Origin: Deltaproteobacteria bacterium
GTDB taxonomy: Bacteria > Desulfobacterota > Binatia > UBA1149 > CAITLU01
Length of the DNA stretch: 64,000 nucleotides
Reading direction: 5' to 3'
NCBI GenBank assembly: GCA_016218925.1
Contig: JACRCR010000080.1
Span: 2,730-66,729 of the forward strand
The first letter of the stretch is position 1; each line of letters starts with the position of its first letter. This document shows, piece by piece, positions 50,454 to 63,840 of the stretch. Both the position numbers and the translations under genes were made by a program. The notes below the pieces were generated by a model. That model saw only the letters and a list, made by a program, of their open reading frames with translations. It did no database searches and was not told the origin of the DNA.

Positions 50454-53400
50454 ATGCAGATCCCTCGACCGCTTCAGCTCGCGATGTGGGCCGCCGCCGT
50501 GACGTCACTCCTGTGCACCGCCGCAGCGCGGGCCGAGCTGCACGCGCTGGGTCACGAGTTCCGGCCGACCGCGCAGGAACGAACGGGCACGAATCCGTGC
50601 ACGACATCCGATGGCGTCACAGCCTCTCTGGCCTTTGTCTGCAATGAAGCCTATCCGGGGTCCGGCTGCGCCAACCGGGCCCTCGGAAAGCTGTTCGCAG
50701 AGTGGCGAACAGCCGAGGGGAACCTCGACTCAGGTCCGATTCTCATCGCCGAAGGCTACTACAGCTATCAGATCCCCTACTCGTGCTCCGGCGATGGCGC
50801 GATCATGCTGGTGCTCGATAGCAACGCGCGGGTCGTCGATCGCCAGGGCCTGCGGGGCGCCGCTTCGCCGGTCTGCACCGACGAGAGCTGCTTCGGCCCC
50901 TTCGGCGTCAGCGCACGCACCGGCGGCTTCCTCGTCGTCTGGCCACAGTATCACCGCGGCCTCGTGGGTCGTTTCTTCGACCAGGGCGGCGCGGCCATCT
51001 CCTCGACGTTTCTCGTCGACGGACCGCCGTCCGATGCGGCCCACCAGCAAAGAGGGCTGCTGCTGCCGGATGGTGATGTGCTGCTCGCGTGGAAAACAAG
51101 CGATCCGCCGGGTGTACGTGCCGGGATCGTGGGTAGCGACGGCTCGGTCGTACCGGCAATCCAGGTCAGTGAATTTCCCTACATCGACATTCTCTCGCCG
51201 CTCACGCTCGGTCTCGAAAGTGCCGATCGCGTTCTCATTGCGTGGGAGAACGAGCCGGAGCAGGCGGGCTGGGTGGCGCGCCGGGTGGTCACGGGCCACA
51301 ACGTGCCGACGACCACGACGAGCACGACGTCTACGACGCTGGACTCGGGCACGGCGTTCGCGGCGGCAAGAGAGCTAGGGACTCCCGCGGTCGGCGACGA
51401 CAGGTACTTGACGGACGCGCCCGGCCTCTTCGGCGATGGATCTGGGCACTGGTTCGCTGCGTGGCTCGATCACGTTCCGGTCGGCGACGCGGTCGAGCTC
51501 GGCGAGATGTGCTCCTCCTCGTCGGACGACGCGCGCCACTGGTCGGCGCCCCAGCCGTTCCACGCGGAAGACTATCCGGCGGCACTCGCATCGAGCGTCG
51601 CCGCAGATGACGGCGGTGTCGCGATTGCCGCCTGGGCCAGACACGATGGCGCAGCAGTTCTCTTCCGACGCTCGAGCGACGGCGGCCACAGCTGGACCCA
51701 GACAGGTTCGATCCATGTCGCCGAGGCCCCGGCGGAAGCGCAGAATCCTGTCTTCACCATCGCCAGCATCGCCGTCACGGCCGGTACGGACAGCACGTGG
51801 ATCGCGGCGTGGACGGAATACATCGATGACCAGCGTCCCTGCGAGGAAAACGACGACGGCTGCATCGACTACACCGACGTTACCCTGCTCTGTGCGATCC
51901 TATATTCGGTTTCCACCGACGGCGGACTGACCTGGTCGGGCGCGCAGACGATCGCAGGCGGCATATGCTGGGGCGGAGGCGATCTGCAGATTGCCGCGGA
52001 CGGCAACGGTACGTGGCTCAGCGTCTGGTCGGACTGGCGCGACGGCGGGGTGCATGGCGCGTACTCCTCGGACAACGGCGAACACTGGTCGTCACCGAAA
52101 ACGCTGCTCTCAGGAATCGACCTCGCTTCTTCGTCGCTGTCGATTGCCGGTCGCGACGGTCACTGGCTGATGGCGTTCAGTCAGTGGCTTTTCGATTGGC
52201 CGACCGACCCGTTCGCGAACGAGTACGCGCGAGTCTTCGTGTCCCATTCGGCGGATCTGTCCGGCGACTGGAGCGCTCCGGCCGGGATCGCACCATGGCA
52301 CGATCGCGTCGATGGAAAAGACCTGTACCCGTCAATGGCCGCCAGCGAGGATGGCTCATTTGGGCTCGCATGGTCCACATATTCGGCGGGCAGCGGACTG
52401 GACGCGGACATCGTCGCGGCCTTCTCCAGCGACTCGGGGCAAACGTGGAGCCGCGCGCACACGGTCGATACCGAGGCCAATGCCGATGCGCGCAACGACC
52501 TCAGCCCGCGCCTCGTTCGGGCCGGTGCCGCATGGGCAGTCCTCTGGCGCACGCTCGAGCCGTCGGGGCATCGGACGATCCGCTTCGCGCGCACGCGCGG
52601 CAACTGTGGCAACGGCGTGGTGGATTCCACCGAGCAGTGCGACGACGGTAACCTCGTCGAAGGGGACGGCTGCGACAGCACCTGCCTGGCGACGGGTTGC
52701 GGCAGCCAGATCGTCACCGGCGCAGAGGAATGCGATGACGGCAACACCGACGACACGGATGCGTGCATCTCGTGCGACGCTGCCTTCTGCGGTGACGGAT
52801 TCACATGGAACGACGTCGAGGAATGCGACGACGCCAACGACATCGACACCGACGCCTGCCTCGACAACTGCAAGCGGGCCAGATGCGGCGACGGGGAGCT
52901 GCGGCCAGATGCGGAGAGCTGCGACGATGGCGACACTTCCGGCAACAACGACGATTGTCTGAACGATTGCGCGATCGCTCGCTGCGGCGACGGCTATCTC
53001 CATCTCGGCACGGATGAATGCGACGACGGCAACCTCGCCGGCGGTGACGGGTGCGACGGGAGTTGCAGGCTCGAAGCGGACTGCGGCTTCTTCACGAAAT
53101 CGGGCCTGCGCGTCACGGCGTCCGACGCGCTCTTGGTCCTGAAGACGGCCGTGGGCCTCACGTCACTCTGCCCGATGCGCAGCTGCGACCGAGACCACGA
53201 CGGAAGCGTCACCGCCGTCGACGCACTGTGGACATTGCGTTGCGCCGTCGGGATTTTCCCCGACGGATGCGTGCTGCCGAGCCGCCTGGTACTTCGAATG
53301 ATCTCGAGCGAAAAGCTCGGCGCTCTGCAGGTGAATATGAGTTACATCGACGCGGCCGGTCACGTGGTTGCGAAGCGAGACGGAAAGCCCGCGTGCCAGG

Positions 53401-53633
53401 TGCTCGTTTCGTCGGTCTCGTCCGCACTGAACTGGATTCCGGACCAGGGCGAGCTGAGGCTGGGGATGATTTCGCTCGGCGGATTCCAGGGGCCGCTCGA
53501 CCTTCTGACATGCCAGTACGACCCGGTTTCAGGACCGTCGCTGCACGATTTCCGCGTCACCGTCGTGGACGCGAGCGGGCTCGACACCAACGCCACCGAG
53601 CCGCCGCCGACAGTGACGCTGACGGCGGAGTGA
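50454..53633 (+). CDS. large secreted BNR/Asp-box (sialidase-like beta-propeller) protein with Myxococcales-type Cys-rich repeats and C-terminal dockerin-like module
   Basis: Signal peptide. Four SxDxGxTW Asp-boxes (SSDGGHSWT, STDGGLTWS, SSDNGEHWS, SSDSGQTWS). At least six C.DG…ECDDGN repeats. Dockerin-like ASDALLVLKTAVG…DRDHDGSVTAVDALWTLRCAVG. GGAGGAGG RBS. Confidence 0.7.
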   Translation: MQIPRPLQLAMWAAAVTSLLCTAAARAELHALGHEFRPTAQERTGTNPCTTSDGVTASLAFVCNEAYPGSGCANRALGKLFAEWRTAEGNLDSGPILIAEGYYSYQIPYSCSGDGAIMLVLDSNARVVDRQGLRGAASPVCTDESCFGPFGVSARTGGFLVVWPQYHRGLVGRFFDQGGAAISSTFLVDGPPSDAAHQQRGLLLPDGDVLLAWKTSDPPGVRAGIVGSDGSVVPAIQVSEFPYIDILSPLTLGLESADRVLIAWENEPEQAGWVARRVVTGHNVPTTTTSTTSTTLDSGTAFAAARELGTPAVGDDRYLTDAPGLFGDGSGHWFAAWLDHVPVGDAVELGEMCSSSSDDARHWSAPQPFHAEDYPAALASSVAADDGGVAIAAWARHDGAAVLFRRSSDGGHSWTQTGSIHVAEAPAEAQNPVFTIASIAVTAGTDSTWIAAWTEYIDDQRPCEENDDGCIDYTDVTLLCAILYSVSTDGGLTWSGAQTIAGGICWGGGDLQIAADGNGTWLSVWSDWRDGGVHGAYSSDNGEHWSSPKTLLSGIDLASSSLSIAGRDGHWLMAFSQWLFDWPTDPFANEYARVFVSHSADLSGDWSAPAGIAPWHDRVDGKDLYPSMAASEDGSFGLAWSTYSAGSGLDADIVAAFSSDSGQTWSRAHTVDTEANADARNDLSPRLVRAGAAWAVLWRTLEPSGHRTIRFARTRGNCGNGVVDSTEQCDDGNLVEGDGCDSTCLATGCGSQIVTGAEECDDGNTDDTDACISCDAAFCGDGFTWNDVEECDDANDIDTDACLDNCKRARCGDGELRPDAESCDDGDTSGNNDDCLNDCAIARCGDGYLHLGTDECDDGNLAGGDGCDGSCRLEADCGFFTKSGLRVTASDALLVLKTAVGLTSLCPMRSCDRDHDGSVTAVDALWTLRCAVGIFPDGCVLPSRLVLRMISSEKLGALQVNMSYIDAAGHVVAKRDGKPACQVLVSSVSSALNWIPDQGELRLGMISLGGFQGPLDLLTCQYDPVSGPSLHDFRVTVVDASGLDTNATEPPPTVTLTAE

Positions 53634-53656
53634 CGGGTCCGTGCCGCGGATCTCCC

Positions 53657-55162
53657 TCACCGCTCCAACTCCGTCATCTCCCCCGCGCGGCGAACGATGC
53701 TGTCGATCATGTCGCGAAAAATGAACGCGTGAAACGGCAGCATCGAATACCAATACAGCCGTCCCATGACGCCGTCCGGCAGGTGGTAAGCAGTCTGGAT
53801 CAGCGTCTGTCCTTCGATCTTGAACTCGAGCCACGCCTTTCCGAAGACATTCATGTGCGCCATGAGCAGCAGTCTGTGGTCCGGCTGAAGATCGATCACC
53901 CGCCAGACGTCGACCAGATCGCCAACGCGCAACTCGTCCTCGGCGCGGCGCCCGATCGATGTTCCGAAGCCGCCGGCCAGCTTGTCGAGCAGGCCGCGAA
54001 GCTGCCACAAGACGTTGAAGCGAAACCAGCCCCGCTCTCCGCCGATCGACGTGACCGCGCGGAAGACGCGGCTTGCGGGAAGCTCGCCAAAACTCGTTCG
54101 CTTGACGTCGCGAAAGGTCGCCAGTGCGAGATCGTCACCGTCGTCCTCGAAGGAAACGCCCATCAGGCTCTCGGTCCAACGACTGCTCACCTCGTCCTGC
54201 TCGTGCGCGTGGACAGCGTCGGCAACCGCAGACTCGAGCGAAGCGTAGGAACCACCTCGCGCCGTCGCCCAGGATTCGTCCGCGCGCAACGCGTGACGAT
54301 CGCTCCGCTCAGAACAAATGAGCGAAAGGAACTGACTCGAAAGGCCGCGCGACAAAGGAGTCGCCAGCAGCATCAGCCAAGCCGAAAGTCGCGGGAGTGA
54401 GACCGGTACCGAGACGGTCATCCGTTTCATGCCAAGCGCCCGACCCGTCGCTTGCACCATCTCGCGCACGCTGGCGGGAGCCGGACCGATGTCGGCGACG
54501 ATGTCGCCTCGCACCGAAACCTCACTGGCCGCTACCAGATCGCTGAGCACATCGGCCAGCGCGATCCATCCGATCGGACGGTTCATCCAGCGCGGCACCA
54601 GCAGCACAGGAAACCGATCCACGAGGTGGACGATCACGTCGAAGAGCGCGCTACCTCGGCCGAGTACGAAGCCGGCCCTGAGCCACAGTGTCTGAATCTG
54701 CTGCGGGCGGGCCGCCAGGACCGAGCCGACATCGGCCACCGCCGAACCGGCCGCCGAGGCGTCCGAGGCCAGGCCCGGAGGAGGGCCCAGATAGACGATG
54801 CGGCGGACGCCAGCCTGAATGCAGGCATCGCGCAACCGCCGCGCGAATTCCGACAGCCGCCTGGACACGTCGCCATCCACTCCCAGCAAGCCGATCGGAA
54901 AGTAGGCGACCTCGATGTCTCGCACCGCGCGGCGCAGGGCCTCGTCATCCAGCGGATCACCGACGAAGACCTCGGCGATGCGGCCGGCCAGTTCGCGGAT
55001 CCGGGTCGGATCCTTCACCAGTACCCTGAGGCATACGTCGGGCCGATCCAGAAAACGGCCAACCAGCATTCTTCCCAGATAGCCCGCCGGGCCGACGACC
55101 AGGATTTTCCTGGGTTCCGTCGTCACGACGTCGCCCCATCTTCGGGCCCGACGCGCGGCCAC
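53657..55162 (-). CDS. NAD(P)-binding (NmrA/atypical SDR-like) protein with C-terminal DUF2867-like domain
   Basis: Rossmann motif ILVVGPAGYLGRML. The C-terminal ~180 aa resembles DUF2867. Confidence 0.6.
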   Translation of the reverse strand: MAARRARRWGDVVTTEPRKILVVGPAGYLGRMLVGRFLDRPDVCLRVLVKDPTRIRELAGRIAEVFVGDPLDDEALRRAVRDIEVAYFPIGLLGVDGDVSRRLSEFARRLRDACIQAGVRRIVYLGPPPGLASDASAAGSAVADVGSVLAARPQQIQTLWLRAGFVLGRGSALFDVIVHLVDRFPVLLVPRWMNRPIGWIALADVLSDLVAASEVSVRGDIVADIGPAPASVREMVQATGRALGMKRMTVSVPVSLPRLSAWLMLLATPLSRGLSSQFLSLICSERSDRHALRADESWATARGGSYASLESAVADAVHAHEQDEVSSRWTESLMGVSFEDDGDDLALATFRDVKRTSFGELPASRVFRAVTSIGGERGWFRFNVLWQLRGLLDKLAGGFGTSIGRRAEDELRVGDLVDVWRVIDLQPDHRLLLMAHMNVFGKAWLEFKIEGQTLIQTAYHLPDGVMGRLYWYSMLPFHAFIFRDMIDSIVRRAGEMTELER

Positions 55163-55217
55163 CAGGCAGCACCAACGCGTCGAGTCACATCAGGCGGGTG
55201 AGGCATGCGCACGATCA

Positions 55218-56942
55218 CTAGCGCGTCGAACCGCATTCCGTCGGGCGCTCGGCGATCGACTTATCCAGAAAACCGCAAGGGCACAACTCTATGCACTTGC
55301 CGCAGCCCTCGCAGCGATCAAGGGCCAGCGCGAAGTAGGCTCCAGGCTGCGTCGCCGCAAGCCGCGTGAAGCCACCGACGTTGCAGTACATGGAGCAACG
55401 CTGGCAACCAAAGCACGAGCCGCACGAAAAACATCGCATCGCCTCGCGGGCGAAGTCGGCGTCATCGATCGTGTCGGCGATTTCACGCTCGGGTTGCTCC
55501 AGCCGCTCGCCGGCCGGCAGCTTGGCTATGACGAGCGGCGCCGATCCTTCGTAACAGTCGGCTTTGATCCGATCGCTTGAAATGCCCGCGGCAACGCTCG
55601 GCGCCGGCGGCGCGAGGCCACGCAACCGCGCGTGTACGGCTTCGGCCGCCGCGCGTCCGTGACCGAGCGCCAGACTTACCAGCCCGAGACCCAGCACGTC
55701 TCCACCTGCGAGCAGGTCGCGATCGATCCACGCATCGGGTGAAGCCGCCGACGCACCAAGCGATCGTTCGACGTTCTCCAAGCCGGTCCAATCGGGCTCC
55801 TGCGAAACCGCGGCGATCACCGAGTCCGCGCATATCTCGCGAAACGCGCCGGGAACCGGGACCGGGGACCTGCGTCCTCCCGCGTCCGGCGCGCCCAGCT
55901 GCATCGCCTGTACTCTTACCGCCCGCACGGCGGCGTCCTGATCGGAGCCGCTGCGCACTATCGCCACCGGCGCCGTCAGATACTCGATGACGACGCCTTC
56001 GACCAGCGCGTCGTCCACTTCGTCGGAGATCGCCGGCATCTCCTGGCGCGTTCGGCGATAGATCAGTGTCACTTCCGCCCCGGCGCGGCGCGCGGTACGC
56101 GCCGCATCGATCGCGGTGTTGCCGCCGCCGACAACGACCACGCGGCTTCCGAGGCTGACCGGGCGTCCGGAGTTCACCAGTTCGAGATACGCGGTCCCTC
56201 CCCACACTCCCGGCCCGCTTTCTCCGTCGATCTGCAGCAGGCGACCGCGCTGCGCGCCGATGCCGAGGAACACCACGGCGTGGCGTCGATGCAGTTCCTC
56301 GACGGAAACGTCGCTACCCACAGCGACGCCGAGTTCCAGGCGAATCCCGAGATCGAAGATCCGCTCTATCTCGGCATCCACGACGGCCGCGGGCAGGCGA
56401 TACTCCGGAATCCCATAGGTGAGCATTCCGCCCGGCCGGTCGTGCTTTTCGTACACGGTCACCGGATACCCGCGCCGCGCCATCTGGTAGGCGAAACTCA
56501 GACCCGCGGGACCTGAGCCGACCACTCCGATGGACTCCGGGTGGCTGTGGTCGTTCTCGCGCGGCAACGAAACGCCACGCTCCAGAGACCAATCGCCGAC
56601 GAAGCGCTCGAGCGCATTGATGCTCACCGGCCCGTCGTGATCCCCGCGGTTGCACGCCGACTCGCACGGATGTGGGCACACGCGGCCGGTCGTGGCCGGC
56701 ATCGGATTGCGCGCAGCCAGGACGTTCCACGCGCCCAGGCGCGCTTCTTCCTCGCTCAGACCAAGCTTCTCGCGCTGGGCAAAGATGCCCAGCCATCCGC
56801 GAACGTCGCCGCCTGCGGGGCACCCGGCCTGACAAGGAGGCGCTTTGACGTGACGCTCCGGCCGCGTGACTTGCAGCCGGAATTCGTCCTCGTGGCCGAC
56901 GCTCGGGTCGTGCGGCGCAGGCCGCGTGGGGTCGCCGGGCAT
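55218..56942 (-). CDS. glutamate synthase small-subunit-like NAD(P)H:FAD oxidoreductase with C-terminal 2x[4Fe-4S] ferredoxin domain (AegA/YgfT/SudA-like)
   Basis: N-terminal Fe-S Cys motifs (CQAGCPAGG…CPHPCESACNRG). FAD (GVVGSGPAGLSFA) and NAD (VVVVGGGNTAID) Rossmann motifs. The C-terminus carries CFSCGSCFGCQRC…CEGCGKCIELCPCG. Confidence 0.75.
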   Translation of the reverse strand: MPGDPTRPAPHDPSVGHEDEFRLQVTRPERHVKAPPCQAGCPAGGDVRGWLGIFAQREKLGLSEEEARLGAWNVLAARNPMPATTGRVCPHPCESACNRGDHDGPVSINALERFVGDWSLERGVSLPRENDHSHPESIGVVGSGPAGLSFAYQMARRGYPVTVYEKHDRPGGMLTYGIPEYRLPAAVVDAEIERIFDLGIRLELGVAVGSDVSVEELHRRHAVVFLGIGAQRGRLLQIDGESGPGVWGGTAYLELVNSGRPVSLGSRVVVVGGGNTAIDAARTARRAGAEVTLIYRRTRQEMPAISDEVDDALVEGVVIEYLTAPVAIVRSGSDQDAAVRAVRVQAMQLGAPDAGGRRSPVPVPGAFREICADSVIAAVSQEPDWTGLENVERSLGASAASPDAWIDRDLLAGGDVLGLGLVSLALGHGRAAAEAVHARLRGLAPPAPSVAAGISSDRIKADCYEGSAPLVIAKLPAGERLEQPEREIADTIDDADFAREAMRCFSCGSCFGCQRCSMYCNVGGFTRLAATQPGAYFALALDRCEGCGKCIELCPCGFLDKSIAERPTECGSTR

Positions 56943-56945
56943 GGG

Positions 56946-57371
56946 CTATGCTTCCTTACGTTGCGGACTTGCCGCTCCCGCACTGGCCGCCTCGCGCTGT
57001 TCGAGGCGACGCCTCAGCTCGACGACCTCGGCGCTGAGGCTTCGTACACGCGCGCCCATGCTGTGCAGGGTGTGGAACGCCAGGGTCGGATCCTCGCGTA
57101 CCCGGCGCAGGAAGGTGCGCCGGTCGATCGTCAGGACGCGCGCCTGTCCGAGCGCGCGCACCGTGGCCGAGCGCCGCTCGTGATCCAGAATCGCCATCTC
57201 CCCGAAAGTGTCGCCGCGCTGCAGGATCGTGAGCTGCGCTTCACCACCGGCGTCTCCTCGCACAACCTGCACGCGGCCCACCTGGACGACGAACATGCAG
57301 TTGCCGACGTCGCCCTGCGCAACGATCGTTTCCCCGTCTTCGTAGAGTTTCCCCAAGCCGCTGATACTCAC
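56946..57371 (-). CDS. stand-alone cyclic-nucleotide-binding domain protein (no DNA-binding domain)
   Basis: cNMP phosphate-binding cassette (GDTFGEMAILDHERRSATVRA) followed by a C-terminal predicted coiled coil. Only 141 aa. Its start overlaps the stop of the upstream gene. Confidence 0.75.
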   Translation of the reverse strand: MSISGLGKLYEDGETIVAQGDVGNCMFVVQVGRVQVVRGDAGGEAQLTILQRGDTFGEMAILDHERRSATVRALGQARVLTIDRRTFLRRVREDPTLAFHTLHSMGARVRSLSAEVVELRRRLEQREAASAGAASPQRKEA

Positions 57372-58789
57372 TGCGAACTCCCCGTCGCACTGGAACGTCC
57401 GACTTTCGGCAAATTTGCCGCAACCAGGTTGCCGAGCAGTCCGGCAAGAAAGCTCGGGTGGCAGCCACGCATCATGACGTCGTTGTATGGAGCACTACCG
57501 GAAAACACGTCCCACAGGATGCCGCTCAGCCGGCGCGCCGACGTCTTACTTTGCTGCTCCAGCGTCGTCATGCGCAGCAAGGCCCGGCGCGTGAAGCGGA
57601 ACCGTTGGAAGAGGTGGCTCCCTTGAAAGACCGCTCTGCCGATCGCGTTGTCGCGGGTGATCGCACGGCAGGTTGGCGCGAAATAGTCGCGGAAGTTCTC
57701 TTCGCCGATGCCGTGAAGCACCGCGGTCAAGGCGGCCGCCTTCGCAGTGCGATACGAGGACCCGATGCCATCCTTGTAGAGACGGGTGACCCCGCAGTCG
57801 CCGATCATCACGAAACGATCGCCGAACGGCTGGGGATGCTGCCGGACGTTGATTCGCGGAAAGCAGTGGCAGACGTTGTCGGGAACCCGCCCGCCCGGAA
57901 AGCATTCGCGCACCTGCGGCGTGTTCAGGAACGCGTTGACGAGCGCTTCGTCTACGTCGTGCCCGAGCATGCACATCGTCACGTACTCGCCCTTGGGAAT
58001 CAGTGCGGCGAACTCGAGGCGCGGCAAGTCGATGAGAAACACGTGCATCGAGTTCCCGAAGTACGCATCGACCACGTCGCTTCCGAGGTGAAACTCGCAG
58101 ATGAACGTCGTCAACGTCTGTGCGCGCCGCGGTTGAGTCCCAGGCGGCGCGATCTGTCCGGCCAGAGCCGTATTGATACCGGCAGCGACGGCGACGAAAT
58201 CGTAGCTGCCACCATCGCCCTCGGCGCAGGCTATCCGCGCCTCCGACGGCGAGAACTCCACTCCGGTCACCAGCCGCCGGCGCAGAGTCGCGCCGTGCTC
58301 GCACGCCAGTTCCTGCAGGAAGCGATCGAATCCGAGCAGCATCCGCGGCTCGGAGGAACGCGGGCCGTTGCCGCGATACACTGCCGCTATTCGTTGCTCC
58401 TGCAGCGGCGTCTCGATGCGGACCTGCCCCACGTCCATGTGCAACTGGTACGAATCGATGCCGCGCTGCACGGCGTCGAGAGGCAGGTTGACGCCTTCTG
58501 CCGCCAGGAGCTGCACCAGCGACTCGGAGACGATGCCGCCGCAGTGGTTGCAGCCCGCGGGTCCGCAATGGGTGAAAGGACGGGGCTCGAAGATGTCGAC
58601 CTTCAGGTCGAGATCGACGAGGTGGGCGAGATTGAGCAGGAAGTACGAGAAGAACGACCCGGCGGGACCGCCGCCCACCACCGCCACACGGGCACCGTCC
58701 TCGAGAGTCAGCGGCGGCCGCCCAGCGCGCGCATCGGACGCTGCGGCCCTACCTGTGCGAAAGCTGATCATGACCAGGCCTAACCTCAC
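57368..58789 (-). CDS. FAD-dependent oxidoreductase (GG-reductase/FixC-like superfamily) with Cys-rich insert
   Basis: GxGxxG (VAVVGGGPAGSFFSYF) and an unusual HCGPAGCNHCGG motif. Confidence 0.65.
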   Translation of the reverse strand: MRLGLVMISFRTGRAAASDARAGRPPLTLEDGARVAVVGGGPAGSFFSYFLLNLAHLVDLDLKVDIFEPRPFTHCGPAGCNHCGGIVSESLVQLLAAEGVNLPLDAVQRGIDSYQLHMDVGQVRIETPLQEQRIAAVYRGNGPRSSEPRMLLGFDRFLQELACEHGATLRRRLVTGVEFSPSEARIACAEGDGGSYDFVAVAAGINTALAGQIAPPGTQPRRAQTLTTFICEFHLGSDVVDAYFGNSMHVFLIDLPRLEFAALIPKGEYVTMCMLGHDVDEALVNAFLNTPQVRECFPGGRVPDNVCHCFPRINVRQHPQPFGDRFVMIGDCGVTRLYKDGIGSSYRTAKAAALTAVLHGIGEENFRDYFAPTCRAITRDNAIGRAVFQGSHLFQRFRFTRRALLRMTTLEQQSKTSARRLSGILWDVFSGSAPYNDVMMRGCHPSFLAGLLGNLVAANLPKVGRSSATGSSQ

Positions 58790-59012
58790 ACATGGAGCGA
58801 GACCAACACGACTGGTTCGTCGTCTTCCTTGCTGTCTTGTAGCGGCCCGGCCAGGATACCGCCATAGTGAACGGGCAAGATCTGCCGCGCATGGGACGCG
58901 CCATCAGGGGGACGGTCCCAGGAGCCGGGCGCGAGCCTCTCTTTAGCGAGGATATGACTCGATGATCCGCCTGCGGACGGGGTTCTCGCCGGGCGCGAAG
59001 CGTCTGCGCGCG

Positions 59013-59897
59013 ATGTCGCTGGCTCTGGTGCTCAGCGGGAGCGTGGCGTTGATGCCGGCAAACGGCGCGGCCGCCGAGCATCTGAGTTCCGATGAGCCCG
59101 AAGCGTGGGCGATGTTCTACTTCACCTCCGTCACGCTGTTTTCGGGGCTTGGGACGCCGCGCCAGCGCGAACCGGGCTCCGTCGAAATGGCGCTCGAACT
59201 CGGCAACATTCCCCATCTCAGCACCGAGCAGCGCACGGTCGGCTTCGGGGGCACCAAGGTCGAGGACCTCAACAACTCTCCGCTCCTGGCGCGGCCCATC
59301 CTCACCGTCGGCCTGCCTTGGAGCCTCGCCCTGTCGCTGTCCTACGTCCCGCCGGTGAAGGTCTTCGGAGTGAGGCCGAACCTGCTGGCGATGGCGCTGG
59401 AGAGACCGCTGCTCATCCGCGGTCCCTGGACTGCCGGCGCGCGGCTGCACGGCCAGGTGGGATACACCAAGGGCTCGTTCACCTGCCCGAGCGGCGTCGC
59501 CGGGTTTCCTCCGGGGTCGGATGGGAATCCCTACGGCTGTGAGGCAACCTCCAACGACAAGGCGATACAGAACTACGTGGGGCTGGAACTGAGCGGGTCG
59601 TACCGCATCGACGCTCTCGGGGGTCTGGCTCCCTATCTCGCCGTCGGTGCCAACTATCTCGACACCGCCTTTCAGGTTCACGCCCAGACCTTCGGCGCAC
59701 CCGACCGAACCAAGCTGTCGGCGGACACCTGGACATTCTCGCTCGGCGCCGGGTTCGCATATCCGTTCGGCGACAATGCCAGCGTCAGCCTCGGCGTGTT
59801 CTACACGCCTTTGTGGGTCACGCGCCCGCCCGAGACTTCGCAGGAGCCCGACTCACTGATCAACGCGCGCACCCAATTCACGTACCGGATCCACTGA
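59013..59897 (+). CDS. secreted protein, possible small outer-membrane beta-barrel
   Basis: Signal peptide MSLALVLSGSVALMPANGAAA. Alternating hydrophobic beta-strand-like segments (WTFSLGAGFAY, VSLGVFYTPLWV). Confidence 0.45.
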   Translation: MSLALVLSGSVALMPANGAAAEHLSSDEPEAWAMFYFTSVTLFSGLGTPRQREPGSVEMALELGNIPHLSTEQRTVGFGGTKVEDLNNSPLLARPILTVGLPWSLALSLSYVPPVKVFGVRPNLLAMALERPLLIRGPWTAGARLHGQVGYTKGSFTCPSGVAGFPPGSDGNPYGCEATSNDKAIQNYVGLELSGSYRIDALGGLAPYLAVGANYLDTAFQVHAQTFGAPDRTKLSADTWTFSLGAGFAYPFGDNASVSLGVFYTPLWVTRPPETSQEPDSLINARTQFTYRIH

Positions 59898-59964
59898 GCG
59901 GATCAGGCTGCACACTTGTTCCGGGGCCGTGAGCCGTCGCGCTACCCATCGCGCCCGCGCGCCG

Positions 59965-60354
59965 CTACCGCGCGTGGCGGTACATCAGGTCGAGCAGTTC
60001 TTCGAGCATCGCGCCGCGCTGCGGGCCCTCCCCGGCCAGCGCCTGCGAGGCGCAGTGGCGCAGGTGGTTGCGCATCAGTTCGCGCGAGACCGCGCGCAGC
60101 GCCTCTTGCACCGAGGCGACCTGCACGACGATGTCGGCGCAGTAGCGTTCATCTTCGACCATGCGCTGAAGGCCGCGGATCTGTCCTTCGATGCGTCGCA
60201 GCCTTTTCAGTGCCGCAGTCTTGATGGCAACGTCGACCGCGTGGGCTTTCCTCGGCGTGGTCTCGTCGGACTTCTTCTTGGTAGCCGCGACATGGGCCTC
60301 GTGGGGCGCCCCGCTCTCGACGACGCTCCGCTTTGTGCTGGTCCTGGCGCTCAT
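59965..60354 (-). CDS. csoR: CsoR/RcnR-family metal-sensing transcriptional repressor (copper-sensing)
   Basis: DUF156 fold with the C-H-C ligand triad (ERYCADI … NHLRHC). The ATG at 60354 overlaps the copA stop (ATGA). Confidence 0.8.
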
Positions 60355-62927
60355 CCCTTCGCCTCCGCCGCGCGAAACCGGCCGAGCCTCAAACTGTTGG
60401 AGACCACACTGAACGAGCTCAGCGCCATCGCCGCACTCGCCAGAATGGGGCTGAGCAGCAACCCCAGGCTCGGGTAGAGCACTCCTGCCGCGATCGGTAT
60501 GCCGATGGCGTTGTAGGCGAAGGCCCAGAACAGGTTCTGGCGCATGACGCGCATCGTCCGGCGCGACAGCGCGATCGCGTCGGCCACGGCGGTAAGGTCC
60601 GCGCGCAGCAGCGTGATGTCGCCGGCTTCCAGCGCGACGTCGCTGCCGCTGCCCACCGCCATGCCCACATCGGCCTGGGCAAGCGCCGGAGCGTCGTTGA
60701 TTCCGTCGCCGACCATCGCGACCACGCATCCTTCGTGTTGGAGCCGCCGTACCGCGTCGACCTTGCCGGCCGGCAAGACTTCGGCGACGACCTCGTCGAT
60801 GCCGACCTCGCGCGCCACTGCGCCGGCGGTCACGCGATTGTCGCCGGTCAGCATCACCACTCGAAGTCCCATCGCGCGCAGGCGCGCGATCGCCGCCGGC
60901 GAAGTGGCGCGCACCGGGTCCGCGATTGCCAGCACCGCCTGCACCTGTCCGTCCACCACTACCGCGACGGCCGTGCGCGCGCTGGCCGCCACGCGCTCCA
61001 TCGTCGCAGCCGCCCAGGCATCCCCCAGCCGATCCGCTGCGCGGTCTTCGCCAAGATCCGCTGCGCGATCCACTCCACGATTCGCTGCGCGATCTTCACC
61101 ACGATCCGCTGCGCGATCCACTCTACGATCCGCTGCGCGATCTTCCGCGCGACTTGGGATGCCGGCGTCGGCCAGCAACGCTGCGTTGCCGACCGCCACG
61201 CGGCGGCCCGCAACACTGCCCGTCGCGCCTTTGCCGATCAGCGCTTCGAAGCCGGCGACGTCCTGAGGCGTCAGCTCCCGCTCCGCAGCATGATCGACAA
61301 CCGCTCGCGCCACCGGATGCTCGGACTTGCTCTCGAGAGACGCCGCGAGCCCGAGTGCTTCGTTCTGGCTGACGCGCGCGTTCGGCGACATCGCGACTTC
61401 CACCACCGAAGGTCTGCCGCGCGTGATGGTGCCGGTCTTGTCGACCACTACCACGCCGACCGCGTAGGCTCGCTGCAACGCCTGGCCGCCTTTGATCAGC
61501 ACTCCCAGTTGCGCGCCCTTGCCGGTGGCAACCATGACCGCGGTCGGCACCGCCAGCCCCATCGCGCAAGGACACGCGATGATCAGCACCGCCAGTGCCG
61601 CCGAAAACGCTCGCAGCGCACTTCCCTCGGCCAGCATCCCCCAAGCCGCCAGCGTCAGCAGCGACATCGCGATCACCGCCGGCACGAACACCGCACTGAT
61701 GCGGTCGGCCAGATCCTGGATCGGCGCGCGCGATCCCTGGGCTTCGCGCATCAGCCGCACGATCTGACCGAGCACACTGCGGGCTCCGATGGCGGTGGCC
61801 TTGAAGCGAAACGCGCCGGTGCCGTTGATGGTGCCTCCGGCAACGTGATCTCCCGCGTCCTTCACCACCGGCATCGGCTCTCCGGTCAGCATCGACTCGT
61901 CGACTGCGCTAGTGCCATCCATCACCAGCCCATCGACTGCGATGCGCTCGCCGGGGCGCACCACGATGATGTCGCCGAGGCGCACGTCGCCGACCGGAAG
62001 GTCCTTCTCGCCGTCCTTCAGAACCACCCGCGCGGTCTTTCCCTGCAAATCCAGCAGCCCGCGCAGTGCCCGCGTGGTGCGGCCCTTGGCCCTGGCTTCC
62101 AGAGTGTTCCCGACCAGGACCAAGGCCAGGATCATGATCACGGCCTCGTAGTAGACATCCGGCGACACTCCGCGCGCCGTGAAGAAGTCCGGAACGATGG
62201 TCGCCGCCAGCGAGTACGCGAAGGCCGCCAGCGTGCCGGTGGCGATGAGCGTGTTCATGTCGGCGTCGCGCCGCCGCAGCGCCGCCCACGCGCGCTGGTA
62301 GAAGTGACGGCCGGCAAAGACCATCACCACCACCGACAGCGCCAGCAACGCAAACGACAGCAGACGTGGCGACGCCGCGTAGAGCGCGGGCGCCAAGCGA
62401 CGCAGAGCCGGATCGAGCGTGTGCATCGACCAGCGCAGAAATGGATCGGCCATCTCGTGCGCCGGGTCGTGACCGCCAGACATCAGCGGCATCGACGCGA
62501 CCATCGCCAACGCACCGGCGATCGACGCGAACACCGCCTTGCGCAGCAACACCCCGAACTCGGCCGCCTGCGCTCTCTCCTGGGTTTGCTGCGCCTCGAC
62601 CGCCGAGACTCCGGGGTCGGGAAGCTCGGCCTGGTAGCCGGCCGCGCGGATCGTCTCGACCAGACCCTCAGCCGACGTCAGCGCCGGATCGAAGGCGACG
62701 TAGGCGTTCCTGGTCATCAGATTGACCGACGCGTTGGTGACTCCGGCCGCGCCGTCGAGCGCCTTCTGCACACGTGCCTGACATGACGCGCAACTCATGC
62801 CCGAAACCGGCAGCGTCACCTCAGCGATGGTGGCGGCGCGGGAACCCGCGAGCTTGCGCTCGGCCGCAGAGGCCGGGTCGCCCTCGATCTTCGCCGCGCC
62901 GACCGCGGCCGCACCGTCTGTAGCCAT
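60351..62927 (-). CDS. copA: copper-translocating P1B-type ATPase
   Basis: N-terminal HMA domain (GMSCASC), CPC (IACPCAMGL), [19 protein letters not shown]. The start could be at 62999 or 62927. Confidence 0.9.
61031..61150. repeat. five tandem 24-bp repeats (gatccgctgcgcgatc-N8) inside copA, in frame, encoding (DRAADRxx)n
   Basis: Units at 61031, 61055, 61079, 61103 and 61127. They translate on the minus strand to [44 protein letters not shown], which sits within the nucleotide-binding domain. Confidence 0.8.
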
Positions 62928-63084
62928 CGCCGACTCCTTCGGGGCCGCCGCACGGCGCATACCCCCCACCCCTATAGGCGCCGAACCCGCGGCCGTCAAG
63001 CCGCGCCGGCAGGCGTGCGCAGAATCGCGACGCGGCGAGCCGCCGAAACAACTACGAAGATGGGGAAAAAGAGCCGCGCGCGCC

Positions 63085-63840
63085 TCAGGCGCCGCGCAGC
63101 ACCGAGCGCAGATAGTCGCGCTGCATGATCTGAATGTGCAGCGTCGAGATCTCCTTGGGGCAGACCGCCTCGCACTCGCCCTCGTTCGAGCATGCGCCGA
63201 AGCCTTCCTTCTGCATTTGGTCGACCATCCGCACCACCCGGCGATAGCGCTCGGGCTGGCCCTGCGGAAGGTAGGATAGCTGCCCGACCTTGGCGCTGAC
63301 GAACAGCACCGCCGAAGCGTTCTTGCACGCAGCCACGCATGCGCCGCAGCCGATGCACGCGGCCGCGTCGAAAGCCTTCTCGGCGATCTCCTTGCCGATC
63401 AGCAACTGGTTGCCGTCGGGCGCCGCGCCGGTATTGGCCGAGATGTAGCCGCCGGCCGCGATCATGCGATCGAAGGCGCCGCGGTCCACGCACAAGTCTT
63501 TGAGAACCGGGAACGCCTTGGCACGGAACGGCTCGACCACCAGCGTGTCGCCGTCGGTGAAGGCACGCATGAAGAGCTGGCAGGCGGTCTTGCCGGTGCC
63601 GGGACCGTGCGGAACGCCGTTGACCACGCAGCCGCACGAGCCGCAGATGCCCTCACGGCAGTCGGAATCGAAAGCCACGGTATCCTCGCCCGCGGCTACG
63701 AGTTGCTCGTTCAAGACGTCGAGCATCTCGACGAAAGACATGTCGGCCACGACGTTGCCGACGGTGTAGTCCACCAGCCGTCCTTCCTTGTCGGGAGAAG
63801 GCTGACGCCACACGCGGACTTTGACGGTCATCGTGCTCAT
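63085..63840 (-). CDS. sdhB: succinate dehydrogenase/fumarate reductase iron-sulfur subunit
   Basis: 2Fe-2S ([10 protein letters not shown]), 4Fe-4S ([11 protein letters not shown]) and 3Fe-4S ([12 protein letters not shown]) motifs. GAGGAAG RBS. Confidence 0.85.

What the first reader, a model, noticed from the sequence alone, without database searches (positions are those of the whole stretch)
55218..58789. Redox operon with a stand-alone cNMP-binding domain (no HTH) sandwiched between two flavoproteins.
**Seen in sequence.** Three co-directional genes with overlapping or abutting start/stop codons (57368-57371 overlap; 4 nt between 56942 and 56946):
- an FAD-dependent oxidoreductase with an odd HCGPAGCNHCGG motif;
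- a 141-aa protein that is only a cyclic-nucleotide-binding cassette plus a C-terminal coiled coil;
- a GltD-like NAD(P)H:FAD oxidoreductase with N-terminal Fe-S Cys motifs and a C-terminal 2x[4Fe-4S] ferredoxin.

**Why it stands out.** CAP/CRP-type cNMP domains almost always carry a C-terminal HTH. A bare cNMP domain that is translationally coupled between two redox enzymes suggests an allosteric regulatory subunit of an oxidoreductase complex, not a transcription factor (inference).
Basis: partly seen in the sequence, partly recalled or inferred. Interest (0 to 1): 0.6.

Follow-up and report, generated by a model that had tools for sequence, protein, structure and literature searches.

The report
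Cyclic-nucleotide sensor split from a flavoenzyme
The small protein is a genuine cyclic-nucleotide sensor with no DNA-binding part; it is the detached regulatory piece of a widespread, unstudied flavin enzyme, which points to bacteria using cAMP/cGMP to switch a redox enzyme directly rather than through gene expression.

Summary
Three translationally coupled minus-strand genes encode:
- a Cys-rich FAD protein (57368-58789);
- a 141-aa protein that is only a cyclic-nucleotide-binding (CNB) domain plus a long helix (56946-57371);
- a GltD-like Fe-S flavoprotein (55218-56942).

A fourth co-directional gene, NmrA+DUF2867 (53657-55162), was missed.

- **Adjacency.** In 80 species from more than 10 phyla, a CNB-only gene sits next to the FAD gene in 78. 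The two misses are at contig edges. The usual junction is a 4-nt overlap.
- **Fusion.** The same two modules occur as one polypeptide (FAD-CNB, FAD-CNB-CNB, FAD-CNB-PilZ) in at least 120 protein clusters.
- **Binding site.** The phosphate-binding cassette is conserved: Gly and Arg in every sequence examined, Glu in nearly all.
- **Cyclases.** Class III cyclase or cyclase-like genes lie within 6 kb in about half of the loci, and one locus also has a phosphodiesterase.
- **GltD.** The GltD-like gene is frequent (about 75%) but dispensable.

The enzyme's substrate, the identity of the nucleotide, and physical binding are all inferred, not shown. I found no paper describing this system. I class it as a new variant of cNMP-regulated enzymes.

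The parts
57368..58789 (-). Cys4 FAD protein (473-aa ORF; probable true start ATG 58771, giving 467 aa). PHBH/GGR-fold flavoprotein of an uncharacterised family with no Pfam family.
   Evidence: Only sub-threshold DAO and GG-reductase hits. GGGPAG dinucleotide motif and GD motif are invariant in alignment A1. Foldseek matches KMO, halogenases, FixC and GGR at 14-16% identity, TM about 0.5. More than 5,400 homologs. At least 573 GTDB species.
58535..58570 (-). HCGPAGCNHCGG motif. C80-x-x-C83 is invariant. The final CGG resembles the flavin-proximal CGG of geranylgeranyl reductases (from memory, not tested).
   Evidence: Translation. Invariance in 30 homologs. GPAGCN[HMN]CGG is also kept in fused relatives. 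AF2 confidence is low here (residues 72-84), which may reflect a missing cofactor or partner, though low confidence alone shows neither.
57863..57871 (-). Second invariant Cys pair, C307-H-C309 (CxC). Together with CxxC it gives four conserved Cys: a candidate metal/Fe-S site or redox-active dithiols.
   Evidence: The CxC[FY]PxIN motif is kept in the fused family with a variable middle residue.
57368..57371 (-). GTGA stop/start overlap between the FAD gene and the CNB gene (translational coupling).
   Evidence: Across 60 loci with the same gene order, the gap is -35 to +57 nt in 59, with a mode of -4.
56946..57371 (-). Stand-alone cyclic-nucleotide-binding (CNB) protein, 141 aa, with no output domain.
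   Evidence: PF00027, E = 9e-23. PDB hits are to PKG/PKA/CRP CNB domains. AF2 pLDDT 89.6. Foldseek matches CRP N-terminal halves and the Bd1971 CNB domain.
57153..57206 (-). Phosphate-binding cassette FGEMAILDHERRSATVRA, with canonical G57-E58 ... R67-S68-A69-T70.
   Evidence: Translation. In the 79-sequence alignment of locus copies plus the window, G57, E58 and R67 are 100% conserved, S68 75%, A69 92% and T70 97%. In the 36-homolog alignment G57 and R67 are invariant and E58 is above 90%.
56973..57086 (-). Long C-terminal helix (residues 96-133), equivalent to the CRP C-helix (dimerisation helix). The tail beyond about residue 120 is variable and dispensable.
   Evidence: AF2 secondary structure. 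CRP alignment covers query residues 8-119. Tails are variable in A2.
55218..56942 (-). GltD-like NAD(P)H Fe-S flavoprotein with a C-terminal 2x[4Fe-4S] ferredoxin domain. Probable electron-input partner; optional in the family.
   Evidence: Fer4_20, Pyr_redox_2, Fer4_7; NF009410 494 bits. Present in about 60 of 80 loci, mostly with a 4-nt overlap with the CNB gene. Fused to the CNB domain in L024.
55272..55418 (-). Ferredoxin-type dicluster domain of the GltD-like protein.
   Evidence: Fer4_7 at residues 509-557. Translation shows two CxxCxxCxxxC-type motifs.
53657..55162 (-). Fourth co-directional gene: NmrA/NAD_binding_10 + DUF2867 protein (501 aa). A recurrent neighbour of both the split and fused forms.
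   Evidence: Pfam. A homolog lies nearby in 20 of 80 loci by cross-locus clustering and in 19 by tblastn. It is the gene immediately after the fused FAD-CNB in two of five fused contexts.

Best explanation
**What it is.** The 141-aa protein is a real cAMP/cGMP receptor. It consists only of a CNB beta-barrel and a CRP-like helix. It is the detached C-terminal regulatory module of the upstream Cys4 FAD enzyme. In many bacteria the same two modules are a single polypeptide; here they are two translationally coupled genes.

**Proposed mechanism.**
1. A class III nucleotidyl cyclase makes the cyclic nucleotide. The cyclase is encoded beside the pair in about half of genomes, and elsewhere in this genome.
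2. The nucleotide binds the canonical phosphate-binding cassette of the (probably dimeric) CNB protein.
3. The resulting conformational change in the hinge and C-helix is passed to the FAD protein, most likely at its conserved C-terminal helices (residues about 425-460). This switches its activity or its electron supply.
4. Electrons come from NAD(P)H through the GltD-like protein (FAD, two [4Fe-4S] clusters, ferredoxin domain) where that protein is present.

**Substrate.** The substrate of the Cys4 flavoenzyme is unknown. Context hints at a lipid, isoprenoid or quinone-type hydrophobic substrate (NmrA-DUF2867, SRPBCC, the DUF3307 membrane protein, lipid genes, a GGR-like CGG motif).

**Shown here:**
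- domain content;
- conservation of the binding site;
- gene adjacency and coupling;
- fusions;
- neighbouring cyclase and phosphodiesterase genes.

**Inferred:**
- physical binding;
- direction and sign of regulation;
- which nucleotide;
- electron path;
- substrate.
For: **Adjacency**
- A CNB-only gene is next to the FAD gene in 78 of 80 species loci spanning Gemmatimonadota, several gammaproteobacterial orders, Burkholderiales, Acidobacteriota, Chloroflexota, Bacteroidota/Rhodothermales, Gaiellaceae, Syntrophobacteraceae, Thermodesulfovibrionales and Eisenbacteria. The 2 misses are at contig edges.
- In the reverse direction, 6 of 6 sampled small-protein homologs follow an FAD gene.

**Coupling**
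- The commonest FAD-to-CNB and CNB-to-GltD junction is a 4-nt overlap.

**Fusions**
- All 120 best hits to fusion protein P0360 are 551-784 aa, cover 89-99% of it and carry PF00027.
- Architectures seen are FAD-CNB, FAD-CNB-CNB and FAD-CNB-PilZ.
- Fused P0440 is 46% identical to the window FAD protein and 42% identical to the window CNB protein.
- There is one CNB-GltD fusion, in L024.

**Ligand site**
- G57 and R67 are invariant in both alignments. E58 is 100% in the locus alignment and above 90% in the homolog alignment. S/T68, A69 and T70 are conserved at 75-97%.

**Signalling context**
- Class III cyclase-domain or cyclase-like ORFs lie within 6 kb in 41 of 80 loci by jackhmmer. Pfam confirms the cyclase domain in the types tested: AAA_16-TPR, TPR-S, HK-REC, and some of the FHA-linked ones.
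- L087 is a cyclase-FAD-CNB operon with overlapping stops and starts.
- L004 carries FAD-CNB, then an FHA protein with a sub-threshold cyclase match, then an MBL/PDEase_II gene.
Against: - No experiment or complex model shows that the proteins bind each other. Synteny and fusion are indirect evidence.
- The window itself (64 kb) has no cyclase gene.
- The same CNB clade is also fused to other outputs, such as PilZ. It is therefore a portable sensor, and a stand-alone copy could have other targets.
- Fused forms often lack GltD-like and NmrA neighbours, so the proposed electron path does not apply generally.
- The AF2 model of the FAD protein is only moderate (pLDDT 71.7) and weakest at the Cys motif.
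- The 80 loci are the closest relatives of at least 573. More distant FAD homologs were not examined.
Confidence: 0.65

Rival explanations
1. The CNB protein is co-transcribed with the redox enzymes but works independently of them. It could be a cNMP buffer or sponge, or a partner-switching regulator that acts on another target such as the cyclase, a kinase or the transcription machinery.
For: - The same CNB clade occurs with unrelated outputs: PilZ in L008, and other C-terminal extensions in P0365 and P0388.
- Betaproteobacterial copies carry Arg-rich (ERRxG) tails that could bind other partners.
- Ser/Thr kinases and FHA proteins are nearby in some loci.
Against: - An independent protein would not be expected to stay adjacent to one specific enzyme gene in 78 of 80 species across phyla.
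- Nor would it be expected to be covalently fused to that enzyme in at least 120 clusters.
Confidence: 0.15
2. The CNB fold here binds something other than a cyclic nucleotide, as in CooA (haem), NtcA (2-oxoglutarate) or CprK. The ligand might be the substrate or product of the flavoenzyme, which would make this protein a metabolite sensor or carrier.
For: - CNB folds with non-nucleotide ligands are established (PMC2246266).
- The domain lacks the N-terminal helix found in CRP and PKA (alignment starts at about CRP residue 25).
Against: - Families with non-cNMP ligands have degenerate cassettes (Table 1 of PMC2246266). This family keeps the Gly-Glu ... Arg-Ser/Thr-Ala-Thr cassette, with Gly and Arg invariant.
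- Cyclase genes, and in one locus a phosphodiesterase gene, are recurrent neighbours.
Confidence: 0.1
3. The locus is a Pycsar-like anti-phage module: a cyclase makes a cNMP on infection, and the CNB-linked flavoenzyme pair is an abortive-infection effector, for example one that drains NAD(P)H.
For: - The logic of cyclase plus CNB-linked effector resembles Pycsar.
- The CNB domain gives generic hits to PADLOC PycTIR/effector models, E about 1e-11.
Against: - PADLOC has no match for the FAD or NmrA proteins, and only a Rossmann-motif hit for the GltD-like protein.
- The associated cyclases are regulated class III types (AAA_16-TPR, TPR-S, FHA, HK-REC), not PycC.
- The FAD proteins are 50-60% identical across phyla, and the surrounding genes vary from locus to locus with no recognisable defence-gene cluster. 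That is unlike fast-evolving defence islands.
- The cyclase gene is often absent from the locus.
Confidence: 0.05
4. The small ORF is a truncated or frameshifted CRP/FNR-type transcription factor, that is, a pseudogene or mis-called gene.
For: The best structural and NCBIfam matches are to CRP-family proteins.
Against: - There is no room for an HTH, because the GltD-like ORF starts 3 nt after the stop.
- Most of the 78 locus orthologs (118-177 aa) and the 120 listed database homologs (118-189 aa) are equally short.
- The CRP matches cover only the N-terminal 113 of about 215 residues.
Confidence: 0.01

Closest known systems
PKA regulatory subunit (a CNB protein acting in trans on a catalytic subunit)
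   Same: - A CNB-domain protein with a canonical phosphate-binding cassette, encoded separately from the enzyme it is proposed to control.
- Tandem-CNB versions exist in the fused relatives (FAD-CNB-CNB).
   Different: - The target is a flavoenzyme, not a kinase.
- There is a single CNB domain, with no inhibitor sequence and no N-terminal N3A helices.
- The interaction has not been demonstrated.
- Bacterial rather than eukaryotic.
Bdellovibrio Bd1971 (cNMP-regulated EAL phosphodiesterase) and mycobacterial Pat/KATmt acetyltransferase (CNB-enzyme fusions)
   Same: - These are bacterial enzymes directly gated by a CNB domain rather than through transcription.
- The Bd1971 CNB domain is among the best sequence and structure matches.
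- Pat is an NCBIfam hit.
   Different: - The catalytic domain is different: a PHBH-fold FAD protein with four conserved Cys.
- The CNB module sits C-terminal to the enzyme or on a separate polypeptide.
'Bact_Pyrredox' CNB family of Kannan et al. 2007 (tandem CNB domains fused to a pyridine nucleotide-disulphide oxidoreductase)
   Same: A catalogued precedent for CNB domains attached to a flavoprotein oxidoreductase (PMC2246266).
   Different: - The cassette consensus differs: GEMGLISGRRRGATVRA there, against GEMAIFEREVRSATVRA here.
- The flavoprotein here reaches no Pfam family threshold.
- That family has not been characterised biochemically either, as far as I know (own knowledge).
CRP/FNR transcription factors
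   Same: The CNB beta-barrel plus long C-helix is closest to the CRP N-terminal domain (34% identity to Thermus CAP).
   Different: There is no winged-HTH domain in any family member, so it is not a member of this family.
GltD-type electron-input subunits (glutamate synthase beta, SudA/NfnB, DPD N-terminal domains) and FixC/FixX
   Same: - The third gene has the GltD domain set plus a ferredoxin domain.
- The FAD protein's fold resembles FixC, which works with the FixX ferredoxin (7koe_C).
   Different: - The partner is a new Cys4 flavoprotein.
- The GltD-like gene is optional in the family.
- No ETF genes are present.

Membership tests
Cyclic nucleotide-binding domain (PF00027) | Pfam score above the gathering threshold | tested here: met
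   80.5 bits against a cut-off of 27.5, residues 10-92.
Cyclic nucleotide-binding domain (PF00027) | Canonical phosphate-binding cassette: Gly-Glu ... Arg-Ser/Thr-Ala | tested here: met
   FGEMAILDHERRSATVRA. In the 79-sequence locus alignment G57, E58 and R67 are 100% conserved. In the 36-homolog alignment G57 and R67 are invariant and E58 is above 90%.
Cyclic nucleotide-binding domain (PF00027) | Eight-stranded beta-barrel followed by hinge and lid helices | tested here: met
   AF2 model with pLDDT 89.6. Foldseek matches CRP, PKG and Bd1971 CNB domains. The N-terminal helix (N3A/alpha-A) is absent.
Cyclic nucleotide-binding domain (PF00027) | Actual binding of cAMP or cGMP | not testable with these tools
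   Needs ITC or fluorescence assays.
CRP/FNR transcription factors | C-terminal winged helix-turn-helix DNA-binding domain | tested here: not met
   No HTH in Pfam or NCBIfam. The CRP equivalog scores 41.6 bits against a cut-off of 266 and matches residues 28-139 only. The protein ends after the C-helix, and the next gene starts 3 nt later.
GltD-like NAD(P)H Fe-S flavoproteins (NF009410 / PRK12771 subfamily) | Fer4_20 N-terminal di-cluster domain plus FAD/NAD(P) Rossmann domains | tested here: met
   PF14691 62.4 bits, PF07992 71.8 bits, PF13450, PF00070.
GltD-like NAD(P)H Fe-S flavoproteins (NF009410 / PRK12771 subfamily) | NCBIfam whole-protein cut-off | tested here: inconclusive
   494.3 bits against a cut-off of 516, with full-length alignment 26-560 to model 39-561.
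Geranylgeranyl reductase family (TIGR02032) | Family score cut-off | tested here: not met
   32.5 bits against a cut-off of 158.8. Only the general PHBH/GR2 fold is shared.
FAD-dependent PHBH-fold flavoproteins (general fold class) | GxGxxG dinucleotide motif, acidic residue at the end of beta-2, GD motif, overall fold | tested here: met
   GGGPAG, E68 and the IGD...DGIG motif are invariant. Foldseek E about 1e-16 to KMO, halogenases, FixC and GGR. No Pfam family reaches its threshold.
Pycsar / cNMP-based anti-phage defence | PycC-type cyclase plus a CNB-fused TIR or TM effector | tested here: not met
   PADLOC matches only the generic CNB domain. There is no effector or cyclase match, and no cyclase in the window.
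Trans-acting CNB regulatory subunit (PKA-R-like logic) | Nucleotide-dependent physical association with the catalytic protein | not testable with these tools
   Supported only indirectly, by adjacency in 78 of 80 loci and by fusions.

The most novel reading that the evidence does not exclude
A self-contained bacterial cNMP-to-redox pathway, present in more than 10 phyla, that bypasses transcription.
- A regulated class III cyclase makes the signal, and sometimes a phosphodiesterase removes it.
- A minimal CNB protein acts as a PKA-R-like subunit in trans, or as a fused domain.
- The CNB module gates a previously undescribed Cys4 flavoenzyme family, fed by a GltD-like NAD(P)H module.
- The enzyme possibly remodels a membrane lipid, isoprenoid or quinone.

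This would be the first cyclic-nucleotide-gated oxidoreductase complex.
Probability: 0.4. Interest if true: 0.75.

Novelty: new variant of a known kind. Interest (0 to 1): 0.62.

Why it matters
Bacterial cAMP/cGMP signalling is understood mainly through CRP-type transcription factors. Direct, post-translational cNMP control of enzymes is documented in only a few cases, such as Bd1971 and Pat.

- **Scale.** This module links a canonical cNMP sensor to a large flavoenzyme family with no Pfam family and no known substrate: more than 5,400 database homologs and at least 573 species.
- **Distribution.** It occurs in abundant soil and sediment lineages, including Gemmatimonadota, Woeseiaceae, Acidobacteriota and Chloroflexota.
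- **Testability.** Because both split and fused forms exist, the hypothesis is directly testable. One can co-purify the split pair, or express a natural fusion, and ask what the nucleotide does.
- **Payoff.** It could give a function to several "dark" families at once: the Cys4 FAD protein, NmrA-DUF2867/YbjT-like proteins, and DUF3307.

Tried and rejected
- **Promoter and terminator scan, 53300-59200.** No promoter-like site; terminator-like sites at chance level.
- **Rfam scan, 53000-60000.** No riboswitch or other RNA.
- **PADLOC.** Nothing specific.
- **Cyclase in the window.** None by tblastn (E < 1e-6) or phmmer (E ≤ 1).
- **PDB sequence and profile searches with the FAD protein.** Only marginal hits, E ≥ 0.003.
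- **Literature.** Seven full-text searches found no description of this cluster, motif or pairing. The only relevant precedent is the CNB census PMC2246266.
- **Kannan's "Bact_Pyrredox" family.** I considered whether it is this family and rejected that on the cassette consensus.
- **Nucleotide identity from cyclase specificity residues.** Inconclusive. AAA_16-TPR cyclases carry a K...T (adenylyl-type) signature, while TPR-S cyclases have Glu at the Lys position (guanylyl-type). The interpretation of these residues is from my own knowledge.
- **Single-linkage clustering of neighbourhood ORFs.** It merged antisense and FAD-motif ORFs, so I replaced it with targeted tblastn and jackhmmer.

Full report
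**1. The observation**

The minus strand carries three tightly packed ORFs.

| ORF | Coordinates | Length |
|---|---|---|
| FAD protein | 57368-58789 | 473 aa |
| Small cNMP-domain protein | 56946-57371 | 141 aa |
| GltD-like protein | 55218-56942 | 574 aa |

- The first stop and second start overlap as GTGA. Only 3 nt separate the TAG of the small ORF from the ATG of the third.
  - The small protein matches only PF00027 (residues 10-92, E = 9e-23).
  - The third protein has Fer4_20, Pyr_redox_2 / NAD(P) Rossmann domains and a C-terminal Fer4_7 dicluster domain. It scores 494 bits on NF009410 (cut-off 516).
  - The first protein gives only sub-threshold DAO and geranylgeranyl-reductase hits.
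- The motif HCGPAGCNHCGG is at 58535-58570.
It starts 55 nt downstream of the GltD-like stop.
- The contig is from a deltaproteobacterial MAG. NCBI calls the FAD protein "hypothetical" and gives it 467 aa, which implies a start at the ATG at 58771.

**2. The small protein is a complete, HTH-less cNMP sensor**

- Its cassette, FGEMAILDHERRSATVRA (57153-57206), has the canonical Gly-Glu ... Arg-Ser-Ala-Thr.
- The AlphaFold model (pLDDT 89.6) is a beta-barrel with the cassette helix, a short hinge helix (87-93) and a long helix (96-133).
- The best structural matches are the N-terminal halves of CRP proteins (Thermus CAP, 34% identity, 113 of 213 residues) and the CNB domain of the cNMP-regulated EAL enzyme Bd1971.
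- Nothing remains to form a DNA-binding domain, and the next gene begins 3 nt after the stop. A truncated regulator is therefore excluded.
- The N-terminal helix of CRP/PKA-type domains is absent. The alignment begins at about CRP residue 25.

**3. The pair is conserved, coupled and often fused**

*Homolog counts.*
- A database search with the small protein found 975 homologs. The 120 listed are 118-189 aa and carry only PF00027.
- A search with the FAD protein found more than 5,400 homologs.

*Adjacency.*
- A scan of one genome per species found relatives of the FAD protein in at least 573 species. I analysed the best 80 loci.
- tblastn finds a CNB-only gene adjacent to the FAD gene in 78 of 80. 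The two misses have the FAD gene at a contig edge.
- Gene order is FAD-CNB(-GltD) in most loci and CNB-FAD-GltD in Woeseiaceae-type Gammaproteobacteria.
- The FAD-stop to CNB-start distance lies between -35 and +57 nt in 59 of 60 loci, with a mode of -4. The CNB-to-GltD junction also has a mode of -4.
- In the reverse direction, all six sampled small-protein homologs sit immediately after a 444-471-aa gene with essentially no Pfam hit (a faint DAO hit in one). tblastn confirmed this gene as the FAD protein in the three loci checked.

*Binding-site conservation.*
- In the alignment of 78 locus copies plus the window protein, G57, E58 and R67 are 100% conserved, S68 75%, A69 92% and T70 97%.
- In the separate 36-homolog alignment, G57 and R67 are invariant and E58 is above 90%.

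*Fusions.*
- An exhaustive HMMER search with the small protein turned up 603-634-aa proteins in which a full FAD protein is followed by this CNB domain.
- Using one of them (P0360) as query, all 120 best hits are 551-784 aa, cover 89-99% of the fusion and carry PF00027. They come from Brocadiaceae, Latescibacterota, Calditrichaeota, Acidobacteria, Deferrimicrobiaceae and deltaproteobacterial MAGs.
- Architectures are FAD-CNB, FAD-CNB-CNB and FAD-CNB-PilZ.
- The fused P0440 is 46% identical to the window FAD protein (GPAGCNHCGGIVSESLVQLL is identical) and 42% identical to the window CNB protein.
- The two window genes are therefore the split form of a common single-chain enzyme-plus-sensor.
- One Comamonadaceae MAG instead fuses the CNB domain to the GltD-like protein (L024).

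**4. Which partners are core**

- The GltD-like gene is present in about 60 of the 80 split loci. It is absent in Chloroflexota and in some Acidobacteriota, Bacteroidota and Syntrophobacteraceae. It is also absent from all five fused contexts examined.
- It is therefore a frequent accessory, plausibly the NAD(P)H electron-input module, and not a defining part.
- An NmrA-DUF2867 homolog recurs with both forms.
  - It is in the window operon.
  - It lies within 6 kb in 20 of 80 loci by cross-locus clustering (19 by tblastn), sometimes as a short DUF2867-only ORF between the CNB and GltD genes.
  - It is the gene immediately after the fused FAD-CNB in two of five fused contexts.
- Other recurrent neighbours:
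  - the DUF3307 membrane protein, 22 loci;
  - an SRPBCC / Polyketide_cyc2 protein, 6 loci;
  - DUF1990.
- In one fused context there are lipid genes: CTP_transf_1, acyltransferase, DAGK_cat and a sulfatase-family gene.

**5. Link to cyclic-nucleotide metabolism**

- Class III cyclase-domain or cyclase-like ORFs lie within 6 kb of the pair in 41 of 80 loci, by jackhmmer with domain-only seeds.
- Pfam confirms PF00211 in several types:
  - AAA_16-TPR, about 970 aa;
  - TPR-S-cyclase, about 650 aa;
  - HK-REC-cyclase;
  - cyclase-TPR;
  - some FHA-linked proteins.
- Two groups are weaker.
  - The other FHA-linked proteins fall below the Pfam threshold for the cyclase domain or show only FHA.
  - A 215-aa type gives only a weak match (PDB 3mr7, E = 3e-4).
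- Several of these genes are in the same operon.
  - L087 is cyclase-FAD-CNB with overlapping stops and starts.
  - L088 is FAD-CNB-cyclase-DUF3307.
  - FHA-linked cyclase-like genes sit directly upstream of the FAD gene in L028, L039, L054 and L078.
  - L004 is FAD-CNB, then an FHA protein with a sub-threshold cyclase match, then an MBL/PDEase_II gene. If both assignments hold, that is synthesis, degradation, receptor and effector in one cassette.
- The window itself has no cyclase.
- Specificity residues differ between cyclase types (K...T against E...), so I cannot assign the nucleotide. The interpretation of these residues is from my own knowledge.

**6. The FAD protein**

- Alignment of 30 homologs (54-86% identical to the window protein, from several phyla) shows the following invariant features:
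  - GGGPAG, E68 and a GD motif;
  - four Cys: C80-x-x-C83 and C307-x-C309;
  - many charged residues.
- Both Cys motifs persist in the fused family, as GPAGCN[HMN]CGG and CxC[FY]PxIN.
- The AF2 model (pLDDT 71.7) has the PHBH fold. It matches kynurenine monooxygenase, flavin halogenases, FixC and an archaeal GGR at 14-16% identity. Confidence is lowest at the Cys motif.
- No Pfam family, PDB relative or paper covers this protein.
- Whether the four Cys hold a metal or Fe-S centre, or are redox-active dithiols, is open.

**7. Mechanism I consider most likely (confidence about 0.65)**

1. cNMP made by a regulated cyclase binds the CNB protein. The CNB protein probably dimerises through its C-helix, as CRP does.
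2. The CNB protein docks on the FAD enzyme. In fusions the CNB barrel follows the enzyme's conserved C-terminal helices (window residues about 425-460) after a short linker.
3. In one subclade the tandem duplication seems to include those helices together with the CNB domain (the PBC spacing is 164-189 residues against about 140 in other tandem forms). I therefore suspect those helices are the docking site and substitute for the missing N-terminal helix of the CNB domain.
4. Nucleotide binding would switch catalysis, or electron delivery from the GltD-like ferredoxin domain.

All of this beyond the genomic association is inference.

**8. Rivals**

| Rival | Confidence | Main reason against |
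|---|---|---|
| Independent cNMP-binding protein | 0.15 | Argued against by the fusions |
| Non-nucleotide ligand | 0.10 | Argued against by the conserved cassette and the cyclase neighbours |
| Pycsar-like defence module | 0.05 | No PADLOC support, high cross-phylum conservation, wrong cyclase types |
| Truncated CRP | 0.01 | Refuted |

**9. Comparison with what is known, and novelty**

- It works like a PKA regulatory subunit (in trans) or like the CNB-enzyme fusions Bd1971 and Pat.
- It is not a CRP/FNR family member, because it has no HTH.
- Kannan et al. 2007 catalogued CNB domains fused to a pyridine-nucleotide-disulphide oxidoreductase ("Bact_Pyrredox"). Its cassette consensus differs from this family's.
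- Databases label the fused proteins only generically: "cyclic nucleotide-binding domain-containing protein" and [quoted passage not shown].
- I found no characterisation in seven full-text searches.

**Verdict.** This is a real, conserved and unstudied system. I class it as a new variant of the known kind "cNMP-gated enzyme", attached to a flavoenzyme family of unknown function.

Noticed in passing
L008 4231-4878 (-); proteins P0414, P0475: The same CNB clade is fused to a PilZ (c-di-GMP-binding) domain. This occurs as a stand-alone CNB-PilZ protein next to the FAD/GltD genes, and as FAD-CNB-PilZ single chains. It suggests cNMP and c-di-GMP inputs converge on this enzyme.
   Followed up: partly
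L004 6604-10224: Compact cassette: FAD protein, CNB protein, an FHA protein with a sub-threshold cyclase match (PF00211 E = 4e-4), and an MBL-fold gene with Apyc1/PDEase_II-like hits. If both assignments hold, these are the effector, receptor, synthesis and degradation of a cyclic nucleotide in one operon.
   Followed up: partly
L002 8001-8531; L012, L015, L017; proteins P0040, P0083, P0113: Betaproteobacterial copies of the small CNB protein end in Arg-rich repeats (ERRxGxDRR...) that are absent elsewhere. Their function is unknown.
   Followed up: no
P0391 (783 aa); P0392, P0393 and P0410 have similar lengths and spacing but their sequences were not inspected: In the FAD-CNB-CNB protein P0391, the duplicated unit appears to include the last ~45 residues of the FAD domain (DTFTGSxxYWxIFLRTLHPFF...) together with the CNB domain. 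This hints that these helices and the CNB form one structural unit.
   Followed up: partly
22 of 80 loci, e.g. L070 9415-9798 (-), L045 9004-9393 (-), L088 9387-9767: A small DUF3307 membrane protein recurs beside the GltD-like gene or the cyclase gene. It is not present in the window operon.
   Followed up: partly
window 50454-53633 (+): A 1,059-aa protein with BNR/Asp-box repeats (BNR_2) and Cys-rich DUF4215 repeats (the DGN..GDGCD..C pattern), directly downstream of the operon on the opposite strand.
   Followed up: partly
window 59965-62999 (-): A copper-type P1B ATPase (HMA, E1-E2_ATPase) whose HAD domain carries an inserted run of [11 protein letters not shown] repeats. It is followed by a CsoR/RcnR-type metal-sensing repressor. 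The repressor's longest ORF overlaps the ATPase by about 380 nt, so its true start is probably later.
   Followed up: partly
window 63085-63840 (-): A succinate dehydrogenase / fumarate reductase-type Fe-S subunit (Fer2_3 plus Fer4 domains) at the edge of the window.
   Followed up: no
L092 9070-11757: Directly after a fused FAD-CNB gene lies an 895-aa protein with only faint FAD-family hits (DAO, Trp_halogenase, NAD_binding_8/9). It may be a paralog of the Cys4 flavoprotein with an extra domain.
   Followed up: no
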